Below, piece after piece: positions 42,001 to 63,000 of a stretch of 64,000 nt of DNA. The position numbers were made by a program. Within the stretch, counting starts at the first letter, position 1. Each line of letters opens with the position of its first letter. Source of the stretch: Octopus sinensis (lineage: Eukaryota); NCBI RefSeq assembly GCF_006345805.1, contig NC_043000.1, forward strand, positions 21,328,001 through 21,392,000, in the 5' to 3' direction.

Positions 42001-45000
42001 CTCTAGCTTGCTTTGAATTCGACTTGTAAGACTTTCAATGACTTGATCTCATTCGTCTTTCTGCAGATGGTAACACAATGACACACAACGTTAAAATTGG
42101 TCAGAAAGGTTTCATACCTCAAAACCTTTCACTTGAAGAAGGACAGGTATGTTATGTGGTTTCATTAATCAGTTGCTACATTAAGGGTTTTGTTTCGATG
42201 CTAAGCTTTATGACAGAATGTATCCATGGATGTTTTCTAGGCAATGAGATGTGTAGACAGATGAAAGGGTATTGTCTTAATATTTTTGTGGGCAGAAAAA
42301 GAATGGTCAGCCAGATAAATTCCACACAACTTTATTGGACTTCGTCTGCAACCGAAAAGTGTCTTGAACTGTCTACAGAAACACTGTGGTCATGTGATTT
42401 GTCACATGGTTCGTAGTGTTGTTGATGACGCCTAATGATTTTGGGTGGATATTAATTATTTCACATTCTCTTGGAGTTTCTGAATTTTTATGGCATTAAC
42501 TATATACTCTCTTTTCTTTTACTCGTTTACTTGTTTCAGTCATTTGACTGCGGCCATGCTGGAGCACCGCCTTTAATCGAGCAACTCGACCCCGGGACTT
42601 ATTCTTTTTTGTAAGCCCAGTACTTATTCTATCGGTCTCTTTTGCCGAACCGCTAAGTAACGGGGACATAAGCACACCAGCATCGGTTGTCAAGCAATGC
42701 TAGGGGGACAAACACAGACACGCAACCACACACACGCACGTATATATATACATATATACGACGGGCTTCTTTCAGTTTCCGTCTACCAAATCCACTCACA
42801 AGGCTTTGGTCGGCCCGAGGCTATAGTAGAAGACACTTGCCCAAGGTGCCACGCAGTGGGACTGAACCCGGAACCATGCGGTTGGTAAACAAGCTACTTA
42901 CCACACAGCCACTCCTGCGTCTATATATATATATAAACATACATAAACATACACACACATACATAAATACACACATGCGTGCACATACAGAGAAAGTTTC
43001 CTCCACCTCTACATCTATTTGAAGGATAAACAATAATGATATGACATTTTCCAGAAGTAAACAAATTAAATTCAAGAAAAATTACAATAACAACTGGATG
43101 TTTTTTCTGTGAAAAATTATTTTGAAATTTCTGTTTCCTTTCAGAGTGTTCTCTTTGAATGGAATGAAAAAACATACGAAAACATAACTCAGGTATCATA
43201 AATATTATTAATTTTCTATCATTGCCTTCTTCTTCTTCTTCTTCTTCTTCTCCTCATCTTCCACCTACTCCTACTCCTCCTCCTTTTTCTTTTTCTTCTT
43301 CTTCTTCTTCTTCTTCTTCTCTTCTTCTTCTTCTTCTTCTTCTTCTTCTTCTTCTTCTTCTTCTTCTCTTCTTCTTCTTCTTCTTCTTTTCTTCTTCTTC
43401 TCCTTCTTCTTCTTCTTCTCCTTCTTCTTCTTCTCATTATTATTATTATTATTATTATTATTATTATTATTATTATTTTTATTATTATTATTATTATTAC
43501 TATCATCATCATCATCATCATCATCATCATCATCATCATCATCATCATCATCATCATTATTATTATTATTATTATTATTATTATTATTATTATTATTATT
43601 ATTATTATTATTATTATTATTATTAAGGCGGTAAACTGGCAGAATTGTTAGAATGCCGGGCGAAATGCTTAGCGGTATTTCATCTGCCACTACATTCTGA
43701 GTTCAAATAAGTGGCAGATATGCCACTTATTCTGTTAATTCTATAATTTGTGTGACATTGTTCCATTATTATGTCTCTGCTACTTTCAGGAATACTGTGG
43801 CTGTTGGGATATATGTCCACATCCACCCTTAAAATGTAACCAACACTTCTTTGTACAAGATTTTCAGCCCTAGTATCTTACATGAAAAAATCTGCAGGAT
43901 GCTGGGACAAGTTGACTAAGACATGTGGCTTGGTGGTTCTGGTGTTTAGCTTACAATCATAAGGCCATGAGTTCAATTACTTGTTTGGGCAGTCCAGTTT
44001 ATTGTTGAGCATGACATTTCAATTTACACTGCTTCAGTCTACTCACCTCAAGATGCGTACCAGCTAGATGCTGATACAGCTCTCTCTCTCTCTCTTTCTC
44101 TCTCTCTATCTATCTATCTATATCTCTCCCCACCCTCTCTCTCTTTCTCTTTTCCCCCCAGCTGTCACAGTCTGGATTTACAACCAGAACAAAGGTCGGG
44201 AGAGTAAAGACCATGTCTCTCTCTCTCTGCTCACAACTGTAGAGTTACCTAAATCAACTAACTAAAGCATGGTGCATATTATGAAGCTGTAGTTGATCAC
44301 AGAAGATGGCTGCTGCTCTTTACTCGACTGGCACTTTATTTCATTTATCCTGGTGGGATGAAAAACACGTTGACCTTTGCAGGATTTGAAAGCACAGTAT
44401 AGACAAGTGAAACTGTATCTTACAGCAAGACATTTTAGTTGATACTCTAATGAGTCTGCCAATACTGTCTTACCATTTACAGATGTCCACAAAAATAATT
44501 TTCTTTTCTAAATCTGATTAATTTAGCAGTAAAATAAATCAGTGATTTTTAGCAACCTACCATTGCAAAAAAGAAATTTGTATTCCACAATGTGGATCTT
44601 TTCCTTTTGAATGGCAGTTTGTAACATAATTTCTAGGTAACTAAAAAGTTTTAAACTTCGTATACAGGTAGAATGCGTTTATAAAACATCATTTTTTCTT
44701 GGCTTTATTGAGAAAATTCTATATATTGTAGCATATTTCGTCTTTAATTTTGAGCGTTTCGGCAATTTTAACCAATCGCTCTCATCCATTTAGGTAAATA
44801 ACATTCTGTGCATAATGATTATGTCCCTCCTTTAAGAAACAGATTGGGTTTATTTACATTTGTGAAGAAAAAAGATACCCTTCCCCCACCCCTAACCCTA
44901 ACCCTAACTCTCACCCTAAATCTAAGATAGATTGAAATGCAATAGATCGATACTAGGGTTATAATTATGGGTGACAATTTCATACGACACTGCTACGGAA

Positions 45001-60000: not shown

Positions 60001-63000
60001 AACACATCACCCGGTCCAGGAATCGAAACCACAGTCTTATGATCATGATGCTGACACCCTAACCACTAAGCCACGTGCCGCCACACAGCTTCTAGTAGCA
60101 TCACACAACACTTACTGATTTAAAAAATCTTCAGTCAGACTTCCTTCGTCTTCAAAACAACTGTCATCTAATAATAATTTATAGTTTTCTTGACCTGCAA
60201 TAACAAAACAAAATTAAATTAGTTTTGTGGAATACAAATAACAAACCAATAGAATTAAAATCTGAATAATAAAATATATTTGAATTTAAGCCAAAGATTT
60301 AAATTTTCTATTCATAAATTTATTGATGATGAATTTATCAATCAATAACATTTTCATATATAAATACTAAAGTTTTGTTTAATTTCCTTTTCTTTTGGCA
60401 GCCTGTAAAAGATGGTTTTATGTGGTTGGAACCCAGGTAAGTCTGTTAAATACTACACAATTGAGCACGTCTATTTACTACTTTTCATATTTTTATATCT
60501 AAACAATGGTTTTACTGATATTAACAAGAACTTTATATAACAGGTATTTAAGTATTACTTTTATTTTAAATATCTCTGTCATTGCCATATTTTTAATGAA
60601 ATACATTACTTAGGTATATGATAATCCATTTTTAACTATAGGACTTGAAGTAGATAATGCTTCAAGTTTTGGTATAAGGCCAGCAATTCTAAGGAATGGG
60701 GTTAATCAATTACATCAACCCTGGTGGTACTTAGTTTTTTAGTTCCTAAAGGTGGTACTTATTTTTTTTTCAGTTCCTAAAGGAAGAAAAACAAAGTCGA
60801 CCTGGGCATAATTTGAACTCAGGACATAAAGATGAACAAAATGTTGCTTAAAATTTTGTCCAGCACACTAACAATTTGGCCAGCTTACTGCCTTAATAAA
60901 ATTATAAATAATGTCTAAATATTTGGCTCAAAAAATGCATTTAGATAGAAAAAACAAAAGGTCATCTATGGCTGCTATTATTTATAGTTTTATCATAGTG
61001 GCAAGCTGGCAGTAACATTAGCATGCCAGGCAAAATGCTTAGTGGTATTTAGTCTGCCGCTACGTTCTGAGTTCAAAATCCGCCGAGGTCAACTTTGCCC
61101 TTCATCCTTTCAGGGTCGATTAAATAAGTACCAGTTATGCACTGGGATTGATATAATCGGGTTAATCCGTTTGTCTGTCCTTGTTTGTCTTCTCTGTATT
61201 TAGCCCCTTGTGGGTAGTAAAGAAATAGGCATTTCGTCTGTCTTTATGCTCTGAGTTCGAATTCCACCAAGGTCAACTTTGCCATTCATCCTTTTGGAGT
61301 CGATAAATTAAGTACCAGTTGTGTACTGGGTTTGATCTAATTGACTGGCCACTCCTCAAAAATTTCGGGCCTTGTGGCTAGAGTAGAAAAGATTATTTAT
61401 AGTTTTATCTAACTCAGGTTCCACAATTAAAAACGAATTATTTCACATCTTTAAATTATTATGACATAAATTAATGCATATCTATATATATATTCTTTGA
61501 CTTTATTCATTTAAAATTTTCTGAATTATATGTTTTAAACATAGGTGATTATAATTTTGCAAGAACCCAGTTCAGTTTTTTAAAATAATTGCAAAAATCA
61601 GATGAGTTTAGTTGAATGCATAATTTTTTTTATATAACCAAGATAGTGTTTCAGAACAAAAGATTCTTACATAAAACTAGGATGGACCGTTTTAATATAA
61701 ATATGAACATTTTAAAGTGAGAGGATTTGTATCATGAAACCAGAGCCTGTTACAGGATGGTCAGTATTAAAAGGGTTAATATAAATAAAACTTTACAAGG
61801 GTCACTCATTTGTCAGTTGATTTGAAGAGCTTGTTAAGCCATAGCTAGCAAATGCATGCATACATATAGATAGATAGACAGACAGACAGATAGATAGATA
61901 GATAGATAGATAGATAGATAGATAGATAGATAGATAGACAGACAGATAGATAGATAGATAGATAGATAGATAGATAGATAGATAGATAGATAGATAGATA
62001 AGTTTCTTTATTGGCCACACAGGGCTGCACACAGATGGGACAAGTTACAAGGTAGAGCTTTTCTTTTGGGGGATGAAAAAAACAAAAAACAAAAGAAACA
62101 AAAAAAAAGGGTGGCGTAGGTTTTCGATCAAGAGGGATCGTAAAAGGGAAGAAAAGAACAAAAATAAATAAATAAATAAAATAAAAAATAGATAGATAGA
62201 TAGATAGATAGATAGATAAACAGACAGACAGACAGACAGATAGATAGATAGATAGATAGATAGATAGATAGATAGACAGACAGACAGACAGACAGACAGA
62301 CAGACAGACAGACAGACAGATAGATAGATAGATAGATAGATAGATAGATAGATAGATAGATAGATAGATAGATGTTAATGTTTGTTTTTATGTTCAGTTA
62401 TAATAAAGACAATTTTACATTAATTTGATGGGTTACTCTATACTTCTGTAGAATACAAATTTATTATTCTTATACAAGAATGTTGTTGATAGTGACTTCT
62501 AAGTTTCAGCCAGTTAAACCATTGTCAGACTGTCTTAGAAATAAAAGAAAATCTACAGTGTAAGGTAAAGTGGTCAAGAAGATCACTTCTCAGTTACATG
62601 TTTGTGTCTGTGTATGTCCCCCCCTCACCATCATTTGACAACTGATGTTGGTGTGTTTACGTCCCCGTAACTTCCAGTAACTTCAGCAAAAGAGACCGAT
62701 AGAATAAGTACTAGGCTTACAAAGAATAAGTTCTGGGGTCGATTTGTTCAACTAAAGGCGGTGCTCCAGCATGGCTGCAGTCAAATGACTGAAACAAATA
62801 AAAGAATATATATATATTTATATATTGGGCACGTTTCTTCTACTATAGCCTTAGCCTGACTAAAGCCCTGTGAGTGGATTTGGTAGACAGAAACTGAAAG
62901 AAGCACATCATGTATGTATATATATATATATATATATACATGTTTTTGTGTGTGTGTGTGTGTGTGTGTGTGTGTGTGCATATATTTTGGTGATGTTTTT

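What the first reader, a model, noticed from the sequence alone, without database searches (positions are those of the whole stretch)
42067..60436. Spliced gene missed by the ORF track, encoding tandem cupredoxin-like repeats without canonical type-1 copper ligands
Seen: nine GT-AG exons (793 nt, about 264 aa) join in frame. They give three repeats of the pattern [V/I]x[I/V]xxxxFxPxx[L/I]x[I/L]xxGxx[V/I]x[W/F]xW...[H/N]x[V/I]x[Q/E]...FxxxGxYxF. Established: this spacing typifies the cupredoxin beta-sandwich, where type-1 Cu needs His plus Cys-Xn-His-Xn-Met after the GxYxF strand. Repeat 1 has no His and no Cys. Repeat 2 has the His (RHTV) but Thr where Cys is expected, with H and C later (KLHYC). 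Inference: an uncharacterised multi-cupredoxin protein, either a metal-free scaffold or one with an atypical site. Five exons (45, 48, 72, 87 and 213 nt) can be skipped in frame.
Basis: partly seen in the sequence, partly recalled or inferred. Interest (0 to 1): 0.7.

Follow-up and report, generated by a model that had tools for sequence, protein, structure and literature searches.

The report
Spliced gene with copper-site-less cupredoxin-like repeats
Nine small exons spread over 18 kb of a repeat-rich animal-type genome appear to encode part of a protein made of repeated ~95-residue beta-strand modules that look like blue-copper (cupredoxin) domains but lack the copper-binding residues; the fold itself could not be proven here.

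Summary
Nine AG..GT-bounded exons on the + strand (80, 48, 116, 213, 45, 87, 97, 72 and 35 nt, 793 nt in all) join in one frame with no stop. Repeats 2 and 3 resemble each other beyond chance (tblastn E = 2e-5). Repeat 1 is supported only by a targeted shuffle test (p = 0.0004 and 0.0056).

The model is incomplete. The last exon ends on a donor with two nt left over, and repeat 3 lacks its FxxxGxYxF block inside the window.

The Cys position after GxYxF is Leu in repeat 1 and Thr in repeat 2, so a canonical type-1 copper site is absent. One slip: repeat 1 does contain two His.

The cupredoxin fold is not shown. Exon-by-exon searches of Pfam, NCBIfam and PDB found no cupredoxin. A fold of the largest exon was all-beta but low in confidence (pLDDT 47). 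Only a language-model lead points to Copper-bind clusters (0.76-0.79). By rule, the joined peptide was never searched or folded.

Best reading: a real gene for metal-free cupredoxin-like modules. An Ig- or FN3-like beta-sandwich remains a live rival.

The parts
42067..42146 (+). Exon 1 (80 nt). It opens with 2 nt (AT) of a split codon and has an in-frame ATG at 42078 with A at -3. It encodes the first 22 residues of repeat 1 block A (THNVKIGQKGFIPQNLSLEEGQ).
   Evidence: Acceptor ...tttctgcag| and donor |gtatgt. Shuffle test against repeats 2 and 3. A strict scan found no convincing coding exon upstream in 1-42060.
43145..43192 (+). Exon 2 (48 nt, phase 0-0). It holds the end of repeat 1 block A (SVLFEW) and the loop up to ENITQ.
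   Evidence: Acceptor tttcag| and donor |gtatca. In-register similarity to repeats 2 and 3 gives p = 0.006-0.009, but this is not significant when the register is left free.
46032..46147 (+). Exon 3 (116 nt, leaves CT). It holds the second half of repeat 1 with FNLEGEYTF. The split codon CT+G gives Leu at the canonical Cys position.
   Evidence: Acceptor ttctag| and donor |gtaagt.
47537..47749 (+). Exon 4 (213 nt, enters with G, leaves AT). It encodes the last strand of repeat 1 (GQILTITV), a linker, and the first 54 residues of repeat 2, including WYW and RHTVHE.
   Evidence: Acceptor ttcgaag| and donor |gtaagc. Similar to exon 7 at E = 2e-5. Atlas recognition score 3055. The AF2 model has six beta strands at pLDDT 47.
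49727..49873 (+). Partial duplicate of exon 4 with its acceptor and about 50 nt of intron. If spliced in, its last two nt (TG) plus the A that opens exon 5 or 6 would make TGA.
   Evidence: DNA alignment. 95% identity over 140 nt. Seven replacing codon changes against one silent in 48 codons.
50435..50479 (+). Exon 5 (45 nt, enters with A, leaves AA). It is the middle of repeat 2 (PQMGTLTGSHRQQF) and supplies the F of FxxxGxYxF.
   Evidence: It has the best acceptor of the set (17 of 20 pyrimidines) and donor |gtaaat. It is one of only 2 phase-compatible candidates with good signals in 47750-53712. With it, the F-to-G spacing of repeat 2 is 62 residues against 60 in repeat 1.
53713..53799 (+). 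Exon 6 (87 nt, enters with A, leaves CG). It is the end of repeat 2: KPGVYYF, Thr at the Cys position, then ...KLHYCAVVV.
   Evidence: Acceptor ttcttcag| and donor |gtatgt.
55403..55499 (+). Exon 7 (97 nt, enters with G). It holds repeat 3 block A (EYKINVLDNMFQPSILVIEEGEIVWWHW).
   Evidence: Acceptor ttatag| and donor |gtcagt. Found by the motif scan. Similar to exon 4.
58148..58219 (+). Exon 8 (72 nt, phase 0-0). It holds the repeat 3 loop with SHAVFQ.
   Evidence: Acceptor ttggtag| and donor gag|gtatgt. It is the only phase-compatible candidate with good signals in 55500-60401.
60402..60436 (+). Exon 9 (35 nt, leaves AG). It encodes PVKDGFMWLEP and ends on the best donor of the set, so the gene continues beyond it.
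   Evidence: Acceptor ttttggcag| and donor cag|gtaagt. No compatible next exon was found in 60437-63990.

Best explanation
This is the 5' or middle part of a real, multi-exon protein-coding gene of an AT-rich, repeat-laden eukaryote, most likely an invertebrate animal; the organism was not determined. It encodes at least three tandem modules of about 93-99 residues that are rich in beta strands. Their sequence pattern and spacing follow the single-domain cupredoxin plan: a first strand, then FxPxxLxIxxGxxVxWxW, a His 7-9 residues later in repeats 2 and 3, and GxYxF about 60 residues after the first Phe. The ligand loop that makes a type-1 copper site (Cys two residues after the aromatic residue of GxYxF, then His, then Met) is gone. 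So the modules most likely carry no blue copper and transfer no electrons. They would serve as metal-free beta-sandwich units for binding or spacing, as other copper-less members of the fold do.

Shown: the exon chain, the repeats and the missing ligands. Inferred: the fold, the lack of metal and the scaffold role.
For: Gene: nine exons with AG/GT, consistent phases and no stops, 793 nt in all. All 9 of 9 exons are single-copy in the window apart from one partial duplicate of exon 4. Seven of 9 exons have higher G+C than their 200-nt flanks (the other two are one equal and one lower), and G+C by codon position is 0.50/0.34/0.36. Very few alternative exons share the phase and signal quality: 2 candidates and 1 candidate in the two large intervals. 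The exon 4 peptide scores 3055 on the Atlas recognition measure; 91 of 100 known-family proteins and 9 of 100 shuffled ones reach 2300.

Repeats: exon 4 against exon 7 gives E = 2e-5 and 0.0014/0.0024. Exon 1 against repeats 3 and 2 gives p = 0.0004 and 0.0056, with the best register being the expected one. The F-to-G spacing is 60 and 62 residues and the periods are 93 and 99 residues.

Cupredoxin-like: the Atlas clusters ranked 2 and 7 for exon 4 carry Copper-bind (80% and 55% of members) and Cupredoxin_1 (17%), at scores 0.79 and 0.76. All ten best family-bearing hits fall in one family or clan. The AF2 model of exon 4 is all beta, with six strands.

No type-1 site: Leu and Thr stand at the Cys position, and no Cys-Xn-His-Xn-Met follows in repeats 1 and 2.
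Against: No HMM or sequence search links any exon to cupredoxins. Pfam matched no cupredoxin family in 0 of 6 exon peptides (5 model exons and the exon 4 duplicate); its only hit was an unrelated sub-threshold one, Dit-like_CBM2 at E = 0.025. NCBIfam matched 0 of 6. PDB phmmer on 4 exons and a profile of block A returned only thioredoxin, LpxA, lipoyl-domain and 'WWHW' chance hits at E >= 0.04.

The Atlas scores are below 0.9, and the tool itself says shuffled proteins reach 0.8 a third of the time and all-ten agreement a third of the time. Exon 3 gave Phage_min_tail instead, at 0.91 with recognition 1969, below the 2300 mark.

The fold of exon 4 had a mean pLDDT of 47.4. Its Foldseek search had 0 of 453 matches at E <= 0.001 and no cupredoxin in the listed top 50. 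Repeat 1 was not among the eight best matches of a leave-one-out profile.

There is no transcript or orthologue evidence. The match of the motif to cupredoxin family patterns is recalled, not computed.
Confidence: 0.5

Rival explanations
1. The gene and the repeats are real, but the modules are another kind of ~95-residue beta-sandwich, such as a disulfide-less Ig I-set-like or FN3-like domain, and the cupredoxin likeness is only a shared strand pattern.
For: The period of 93-99 residues and the all-beta prediction fit Ig/FN3 as well. GxxVxWxW and GxYxF can be laid over the Ig strand B 'GxxVxLxC' and strand F 'GxYxC' patterns, with about 47 residues between them; that comparison is recalled, not computed. 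No cupredoxin HMM hit was found. Ig and FN3 repeats are far commoner in animal genes (general knowledge).
Against: No Ig or FN3 Pfam hit either, 0 of 6 exon peptides. There is no Trp 12-14 residues after the strand B position and no Cys pair. An extra first strand (YxIxV) about 10 residues before FxP, and a His 7-9 residues after WxW, fit the cupredoxin plan better (recalled patterns). The Atlas lead is to Copper-bind, not Ig.
Confidence: 0.25
2. Repeat 2 (and perhaps repeat 3) still binds a metal at an atypical site. That site would be built from the retained His after WxW (RHTV) and the His and Cys of 'KLHYC' just before the last strand, or from the other His and Cys that crowd repeat 2.
For: Repeat 2 is rich in possible ligands: the repeat 2 part of exon 4 has 3 His and 2 Cys, exon 5 has 1 His, and exon 6 has 1 His and 1 Cys. 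Repeat 1 has 2 His and no Cys. His, His and Cys are the three strong ligands of a type-1 site (established; also stated in passages of PMC6485061).
Against: The Cys sits 13 residues after the canonical position, and His precedes it instead of following it. Nothing shows that these side chains meet in space. There is no conservation data. Repeat 1 lacks the set, so it is not a feature of the module.
Confidence: 0.1
3. There is no working gene. The chain is either a chance assembly of open AG..GT fragments around one or two relic exons, or a decaying pseudogene.
For: There is no transcript or orthologue evidence. Short exons are easy to find by chance: for the 45-nt size alone there were 13 and 15 open candidates in the two intervals. 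Exon 2 has a weak donor. A decaying copy of exon 4 lies 2 kb downstream. The introns are full of transposon debris.
Against: Three mutually similar repeats in the right order, strand and phase. No stop in 259 codons or in the four split codons. With reasonable signal thresholds almost no alternative exons exist. The intact exon 4 contrasts with its duplicate, which shows 7 replacing changes against 1 silent and ends in a stop.
Confidence: 0.12
4. It is a piece of a six-domain multicopper oxidase of the hephaestin/ceruloplasmin type, whose odd-numbered cupredoxin domains lack type-1 sites.
For: Six-domain multicopper oxidases with cupredoxin domains occur across bilaterians (passages of PMC4890752).
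Against: The repeat period is 93-99 residues, while domains of those oxidases are much larger (recalled). No HxH or HCH motifs occur in the exons. No Cu-oxidase Pfam hit was found in 0 of 6 exon peptides.
Confidence: 0.03

Closest known systems
Single-domain blue copper proteins (plastocyanin, amicyanin, halocyanin type; Pfam Copper-bind PF00127 and Cupredoxin_1 PF13473)
   Same: The module length is about 95 residues. The order and spacing of the strand motifs agree (first strand, FxPxxLxIxxGxxVxWx[WN], His about 7-9 residues later, GxYx[FY] about 60 residues after the Phe). That comparison is from recalled family patterns. The Atlas lead for exon 4 points to clusters of these families.
   Different: There is no Cys, His and Met ligand loop in repeats 1 and 2. 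Repeat 1 has Asn at the first His position. The arrangement is a tandem array rather than a single domain. The gene is eukaryotic and intron-rich. No significant HMM match was found at exon level.
Ephrin receptor-binding domain
   Same: It is an animal protein module with the cupredoxin fold that has lost the copper site through non-conservative substitutions at the ligand positions (passages of PMC6485061). It is therefore a precedent for a metal-free binding role.
   Different: Ephrins carry one such domain with conserved disulfides and a membrane anchor. Here there are at least three tandem copies, there is no Cys pair, and no Ephrin Pfam hit was found.
Cupredoxin-like C-terminal domain of mollusc haemocyanin
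   Same: It is a copper-less cupredoxin-like module in an invertebrate protein. I know it from recall; I saw the paper (Jaenicke et al. 2010) only as an entry in the reference list of PMC6485061 and as a topic in the search listing.
   Different: That is a single appendage on a tyrosinase-type functional unit. No haemocyanin or tyrosinase motifs or hits occur in these exons.
Six-domain multicopper oxidases (ceruloplasmin, hephaestin)
   Same: They are tandem cupredoxin domains in bilaterian proteins, some without type-1 sites (passages of PMC4890752).
   Different: Their domains are much larger and carry HxH and HCH copper motifs (recalled). Here the period is 93-99 residues and no such motifs are present.

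Membership tests
Cupredoxin / type-1 blue copper protein | Greek-key beta-sandwich fold of the cupredoxin type | tested here: inconclusive
   Only exon 4 (70 aa, about half a domain plus the last strand of the previous one) could be folded. It was all beta with six strands, mean pLDDT 47.4 and pTM 0.32. Foldseek against PDB gave 0 of 453 matches at E <= 0.001 and no cupredoxin in the listed top 50. Folding a whole repeat needs joined exons, which was left out by rule.
Cupredoxin / type-1 blue copper protein | Significant match to the family profiles (PF00127, PF13473, PF02298 or NCBIfam equivalents) | tested here: inconclusive
   Exon by exon there was no match: Pfam 0 of 6 exon peptides, NCBIfam 0 of 6. 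PDB phmmer on exons 3, 4, 6 and 7 and a profile of block A found no cupredoxin. The pieces are 24-70 aa long, so a true weak relative could be missed. The whole repeat was not searched.
Cupredoxin / type-1 blue copper protein | First His ligand on the strand after the xWxW/xFxN strand | tested here: inconclusive
   A His lies 7 residues (repeat 2, RHTV) and 9 residues (repeat 3, SHAV) after the last Trp. Repeat 1 has Asn at +7 and a His at +13. Equivalence to the ligand position rests on spacing only.
Cupredoxin / type-1 blue copper protein | Cys-Xn-His-Xn-Met loop right after the GxYx[FY] strand | tested here: not met
   In repeat 1 the Cys position is Leu and no Cys, His or Met follows before the last strand. 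In repeat 2 it is Thr, and His-Tyr-Cys appears 11-13 residues later in reversed order. That part of repeat 3 is not in the window.
Six-domain multicopper oxidase | Large (>150 aa) cupredoxin domains with HxH / HCH copper motifs | tested here: not met
   The period is 93 and 99 residues, there is no HxH or HCH in any exon, and there is no Cu-oxidase Pfam hit. The domain size of the family is recalled.
Immunoglobulin-like / FN3 repeat proteins | Profile match; Cys(B)-Trp(C)-Cys(F) core for Ig, or the FN3 Trp(B)/Tyr(C)/Tyr(F) pattern | tested here: inconclusive
   No Ig or FN3 Pfam hit in 0 of 6 exon peptides. No Cys pair and no Trp after the WxW strand. Divergent members of these folds often escape profiles, and the fold could not be tested.

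The most novel reading that the evidence does not exclude
The gene is a bilaterian descendant of the single-domain cupredoxins, a lineage that one survey (passages of PMC6485061) proposes was lost early in bilaterian evolution. Here it would survive as a tandem array that gave up blue copper, with repeat 2 perhaps holding a rearranged His/His/Cys metal site. That would be a second, independent conversion of a cupredoxin into a non-redox module in animals, besides ephrins.
Probability: 0.2. Interest if true: 0.6.

Novelty: new variant of a known kind. Interest (0 to 1): 0.4.

Why it matters
If the fold is confirmed, this would be an animal protein built from several plastocyanin-sized cupredoxin modules that have lost the copper site. 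Copper-less cupredoxin folds are known in animals, for example ephrins, but tandem arrays of the small single-domain type are not something I found described. Five literature searches gave no such paper; that is a limited search, not proof of absence. It would add a case study of how a redox fold is recycled as a structural or binding module.

If the fold turns out to be Ig- or FN3-like, the finding is an ordinary unannotated repeat protein. Either way, the practical value is an exon model that an ORF-based track cannot see.

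Tried and rejected
Searches that led nowhere:
- Family searches exon by exon: Pfam and NCBIfam gave nothing usable.
- PDB sequence searches with exons 4, 6, 3 and 7 and with a block A profile gave only chance-level hits: thioredoxin E = 0.098, LpxA E = 0.56, and a 'hypothetical virulence protein' E = 0.043 through the WWHW string.
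- Atlas with exon 3 gave Phage_min_tail at 0.91 with recognition below the mark. I treat it as chance.
- The AF2 model of exon 4 with a 4-row alignment and Foldseek on it had too little confidence to read. I left the second fold job unused, because no other single exon is longer.
- The genome-contig scan with exon 4 matched 160 pattern stretches, but none was confirmed. So there is no close prokaryotic relative and no sign of bacterial contamination.
- tblastn of exon 4 against plasmids gave one hit at E = 1. It lies inside a 769-aa repeat-rich ORF whose C-terminal part looked to me like an autotransporter or outer-membrane protein; I did not search it against any family. I rejected it as noise.
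- Rfam on the whole window gave 0 matches.
- A search for more repeats of block A in all six frames of the window found none beyond those already known.
- A search for the next exon after 60436 and for coding exons before 42067 (2 candidates, both inside interspersed repeats) found nothing convincing.
- Complex prediction was not used. No binding claim is made.

Left unchecked:
- Supplements were closed. Table S3 and Figures S8-S9 of PMC6485061, which list cupredoxins by taxon, may bear on the 'lost in bilaterians' statement, and I did not see them.
- I do not take the window for human. An Alu-type motif gave 0 matches at up to 3 mismatches, and the interspersed repeats are of other kinds.

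Full report
SETTING. The window has no N and a G+C content of 0.31-0.43. It is packed with microsatellites and interspersed repeat families. It also carries transposon remains, among them a Mos1/mariner-type transposase in three stop-separated pieces at 56010-57070 (HTH_48 E = 2.5e-9, Transposase_1 E = 4.3e-21). An Alu-type motif has 0 matches, and Rfam finds nothing. I read it as an intron-rich eukaryote, probably an invertebrate animal and not human. The organism was not determined.

THE OBSERVATION. It has nine exons: 42067-42146 (80 nt), 43145-43192 (48), 46032-46147 (116), 47537-47749 (213), 50435-50479 (45), 53713-53799 (87), 55403-55499 (97), 58148-58219 (72) and 60402-60436 (35). They sum to 793 nt. 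Every exon follows AG and precedes GT. Acceptor tracts hold 60-85% pyrimidines, and seven of nine donors fit GTRAGT well. The phases fit: exon 1 opens with 2 nt, and the four split codons read CTG, ATA, AAA and CGG. The 259 whole codons hold no stop. That is arithmetic, not evidence of skipping, and each of those exons carries core strands of a repeat.

MORE THAN CHANCE?
- An open AG..GT chain alone is cheap. For the 45-nt size alone there were 13 and 15 open candidates in the two long intervals, and for 72 nt there were 1 and 6.
- All 9 of 9 exons are single-copy in the window except for a partial duplicate of exon 4. Seven of 9 have higher G+C than their flanks, and G+C by codon position is 0.50/0.34/0.36.
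- The strongest argument is the internal repeat. Exon 4 and exon 7 match at 38% identity over 31 residues, with tblastn E = 2e-5 against the window and E = 0.0014/0.0024 with single-sequence profiles against 3240 six-frame fragments.
- Repeat 1 is weaker. A profile built without it did not list exon 1 among its eight best matches. In a targeted test its 22 residues score best in exactly the expected register, with shuffle p = 0.0004 against repeat 3 and 0.0056 against repeat 2 (5000 shuffles each). Exon 2 passes only in the fixed register (p = 0.006-0.009).
- The distance from the Phe of block A to the Gly of GxYxF is 60 residues in repeat 1 and 62 in repeat 2. The repeat periods are 93 and 99 residues. 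This also argues that the small exons 2 and 5 belong to the gene.

LIMITS OF THE MODEL. The last exon ends on the best donor of the set with 2 nt left over, so the gene runs on. I found no compatible exon in the remaining 3.5 kb, and repeat 3 lacks its GxYxF block. Upstream, a strict scan of 1-42060 gave 2 candidates, both inside interspersed repeats, and no further block A exists anywhere in the window. The ATG at 42078 (A at -3) may therefore be the start, reached through a spliced 5' UTR; that is inference. If so, the protein starts directly with the first strand and has no signal peptide.

- Repeat 1 has two His (42084-42086 and 46038-40), though no Cys.
- Repeat 2 has FQE, not FxP.
- The [H/N]x[V/I]x[Q/E] block fits repeats 2 and 3 but only loosely fits repeat 1.

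LIGAND POSITIONS. Type-1 copper needs a His on the strand after the xWxW/xFxN strand, then Cys, His and usually Met in the loop after GxYx[FY]. This is established knowledge, and the azurin ligands are also listed in passages of PMC6485061. Here a His lies 7 residues (repeat 2) and 9 residues (repeat 3) after the last Trp; repeat 1 has Asn at +7. The Cys position is Leu in repeat 1 and Thr in repeat 2, and no Cys-His-Met series follows. Repeat 2 has His-Tyr-Cys 11-13 residues later, just before the last strand. A canonical site is therefore absent, a defining feature that was tested and not met. An unorthodox site in repeat 2 cannot be excluded.

IS IT A CUPREDOXIN FOLD? I could not show it.
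- Pfam gave no cupredoxin, Ig or FN3 match for 0 of 6 exon peptides; its only hit was Dit-like_CBM2 at E = 0.025, far below the cut-off.
- NCBIfam matched 0 of 6.
- PDB sequence searches with four exons and a block A profile found no cupredoxin.
- The Atlas search with exon 4 gave a best score of 0.80. Clusters at ranks 2 and 7 carry Copper-bind (80% and 55% of members) and Cupredoxin_1 (17%). The ten best family-bearing hits agree, and the recognition value is 3055. By the tool's own calibration this is only a lead.
- Exon 3 gave an unrelated family with recognition below the mark.
- AF2 on exon 4 with a four-row alignment of window sequences gave six beta strands at a mean pLDDT of 47.4. Foldseek on it gave 0 of 453 matches at E <= 0.001.
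- There is no close relative in prokaryotic genomes. The single plasmid hit at E = 1 is noise.

What remains in favour of cupredoxin is the order and spacing of the motifs. A first strand YxIxV lies about 10 residues before FxP. Then come LxIxxGxxVxWxW, a His 7-9 residues on, GxYxF about 60 residues after the Phe, and a last strand about 10-15 residues later, in a module of about 95 residues. From memory this matches plastocyanin, amicyanin and halocyanin and the Cupredoxin_1 pattern closely. Parts of it can also be laid over Ig strand B and strand F motifs, which keeps an Ig/FN3-like sandwich alive as a rival.

HOW IT MOST LIKELY WORKS. It is a string of small beta-sandwich modules without blue copper, acting as binding or spacing units rather than electron carriers. 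The precedent in animals is the ephrin receptor-binding domain, a cupredoxin fold whose ligand positions were replaced (passages of PMC6485061). I put this reading at 0.5, the other-sandwich rival at 0.25, an atypical metal site in repeat 2 at 0.1, no working gene at 0.12, and a multicopper-oxidase fragment at 0.03. The last is disfavoured because the period is too short and there are no HxH motifs; such oxidases in bilaterians are described in passages of PMC4890752.

NOVELTY. PMC6485061 (passages) proposes that functional single-domain cupredoxins were lost early in bilaterian evolution. Five literature searches turned up no description of tandem copper-less arrays of the small type in animals. 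That is thin evidence of absence, and the supplements of that paper were closed. I rate the finding a new variant of a known kind, conditional on the fold, with interest 0.4.

SIDE FINDING. A 195-bp stretch comprising about 50 nt of intron, the acceptor and the first 143 nt of exon 4 is duplicated 2.2 kb downstream (95% identity over 140 nt). The copy differs by 7 replacing codon changes and 1 silent one in 48 codons, and it loses similarity after ...WYWKQ. Using the only nearby GT, it would end in TG, which makes TGA with the first base of exon 5 or 6. It looks like a decaying pseudo-exon, or a poison exon if it is ever spliced in.

Noticed in passing
window 49677-49873 (+): A partial tandem duplicate of exon 4, with its acceptor and about 50 nt of intron. 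It is 95% identical over 140 nt, shows 7 replacing changes against 1 silent, and loses similarity mid-exon. Including it would create a TGA with the next exon.
   Followed up: yes
window 56010-57070 (+), inside the intron between exons 7 and 8: A Mos1/mariner-type transposase in three ORF pieces separated by stops (HTH_48 E = 2.5e-9, Transposase_1 E = 4.3e-21, DDE_3 E = 0.0029). It is a decayed element on the same strand as the gene.
   Followed up: partly
window 42067-42081 (+): Exon 1 opens with an out-of-frame ATG whose 4-codon ORF ends in a TGA that overlaps the in-frame ATG at 42078 (ATGA). This may be a chance uORF or a reinitiation arrangement.
   Followed up: no
window 51874-51984 (+): The only other phase-compatible exon candidate with good splice signals between exons 4 and 6 (111 nt). 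Including it would lengthen repeat 2 by 37 residues and break the 60/62 spacing, so I left it out.
   Followed up: partly
window 390-1947 (+): Long open frames (271 aa, then 114-148 aa pieces) with no Pfam match. They are Cys/His-rich at the start and acidic in the middle, and may be a transposon-derived or orphan gene.
   Followed up: partly
window 22198-22446 (-): A reverse-transcriptase fragment (RVT_1 E = 1.4e-6, 28.6 bits against a cut-off of 29.6), presumably a retroelement remnant.
   Followed up: partly
window, e.g. 10770-11097, 16336-16665, 27340-27653, 48797-49273; also 7867-8166, 38681-38980, 59067-59366, 61000-61299: Several families of interspersed repeats of 100-300 nt at 60-97% identity. 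They look SINE-like, lie scattered over the window, and include copies inside the gene's introns.
   Followed up: no
window 43168-43702 and 48101-48390: Long trinucleotide and homopolymer-codon microsatellites in the introns give 140-150-aa stop-free 'ORFs' in several frames on both strands. These are a trap for an ORF track.
   Followed up: no
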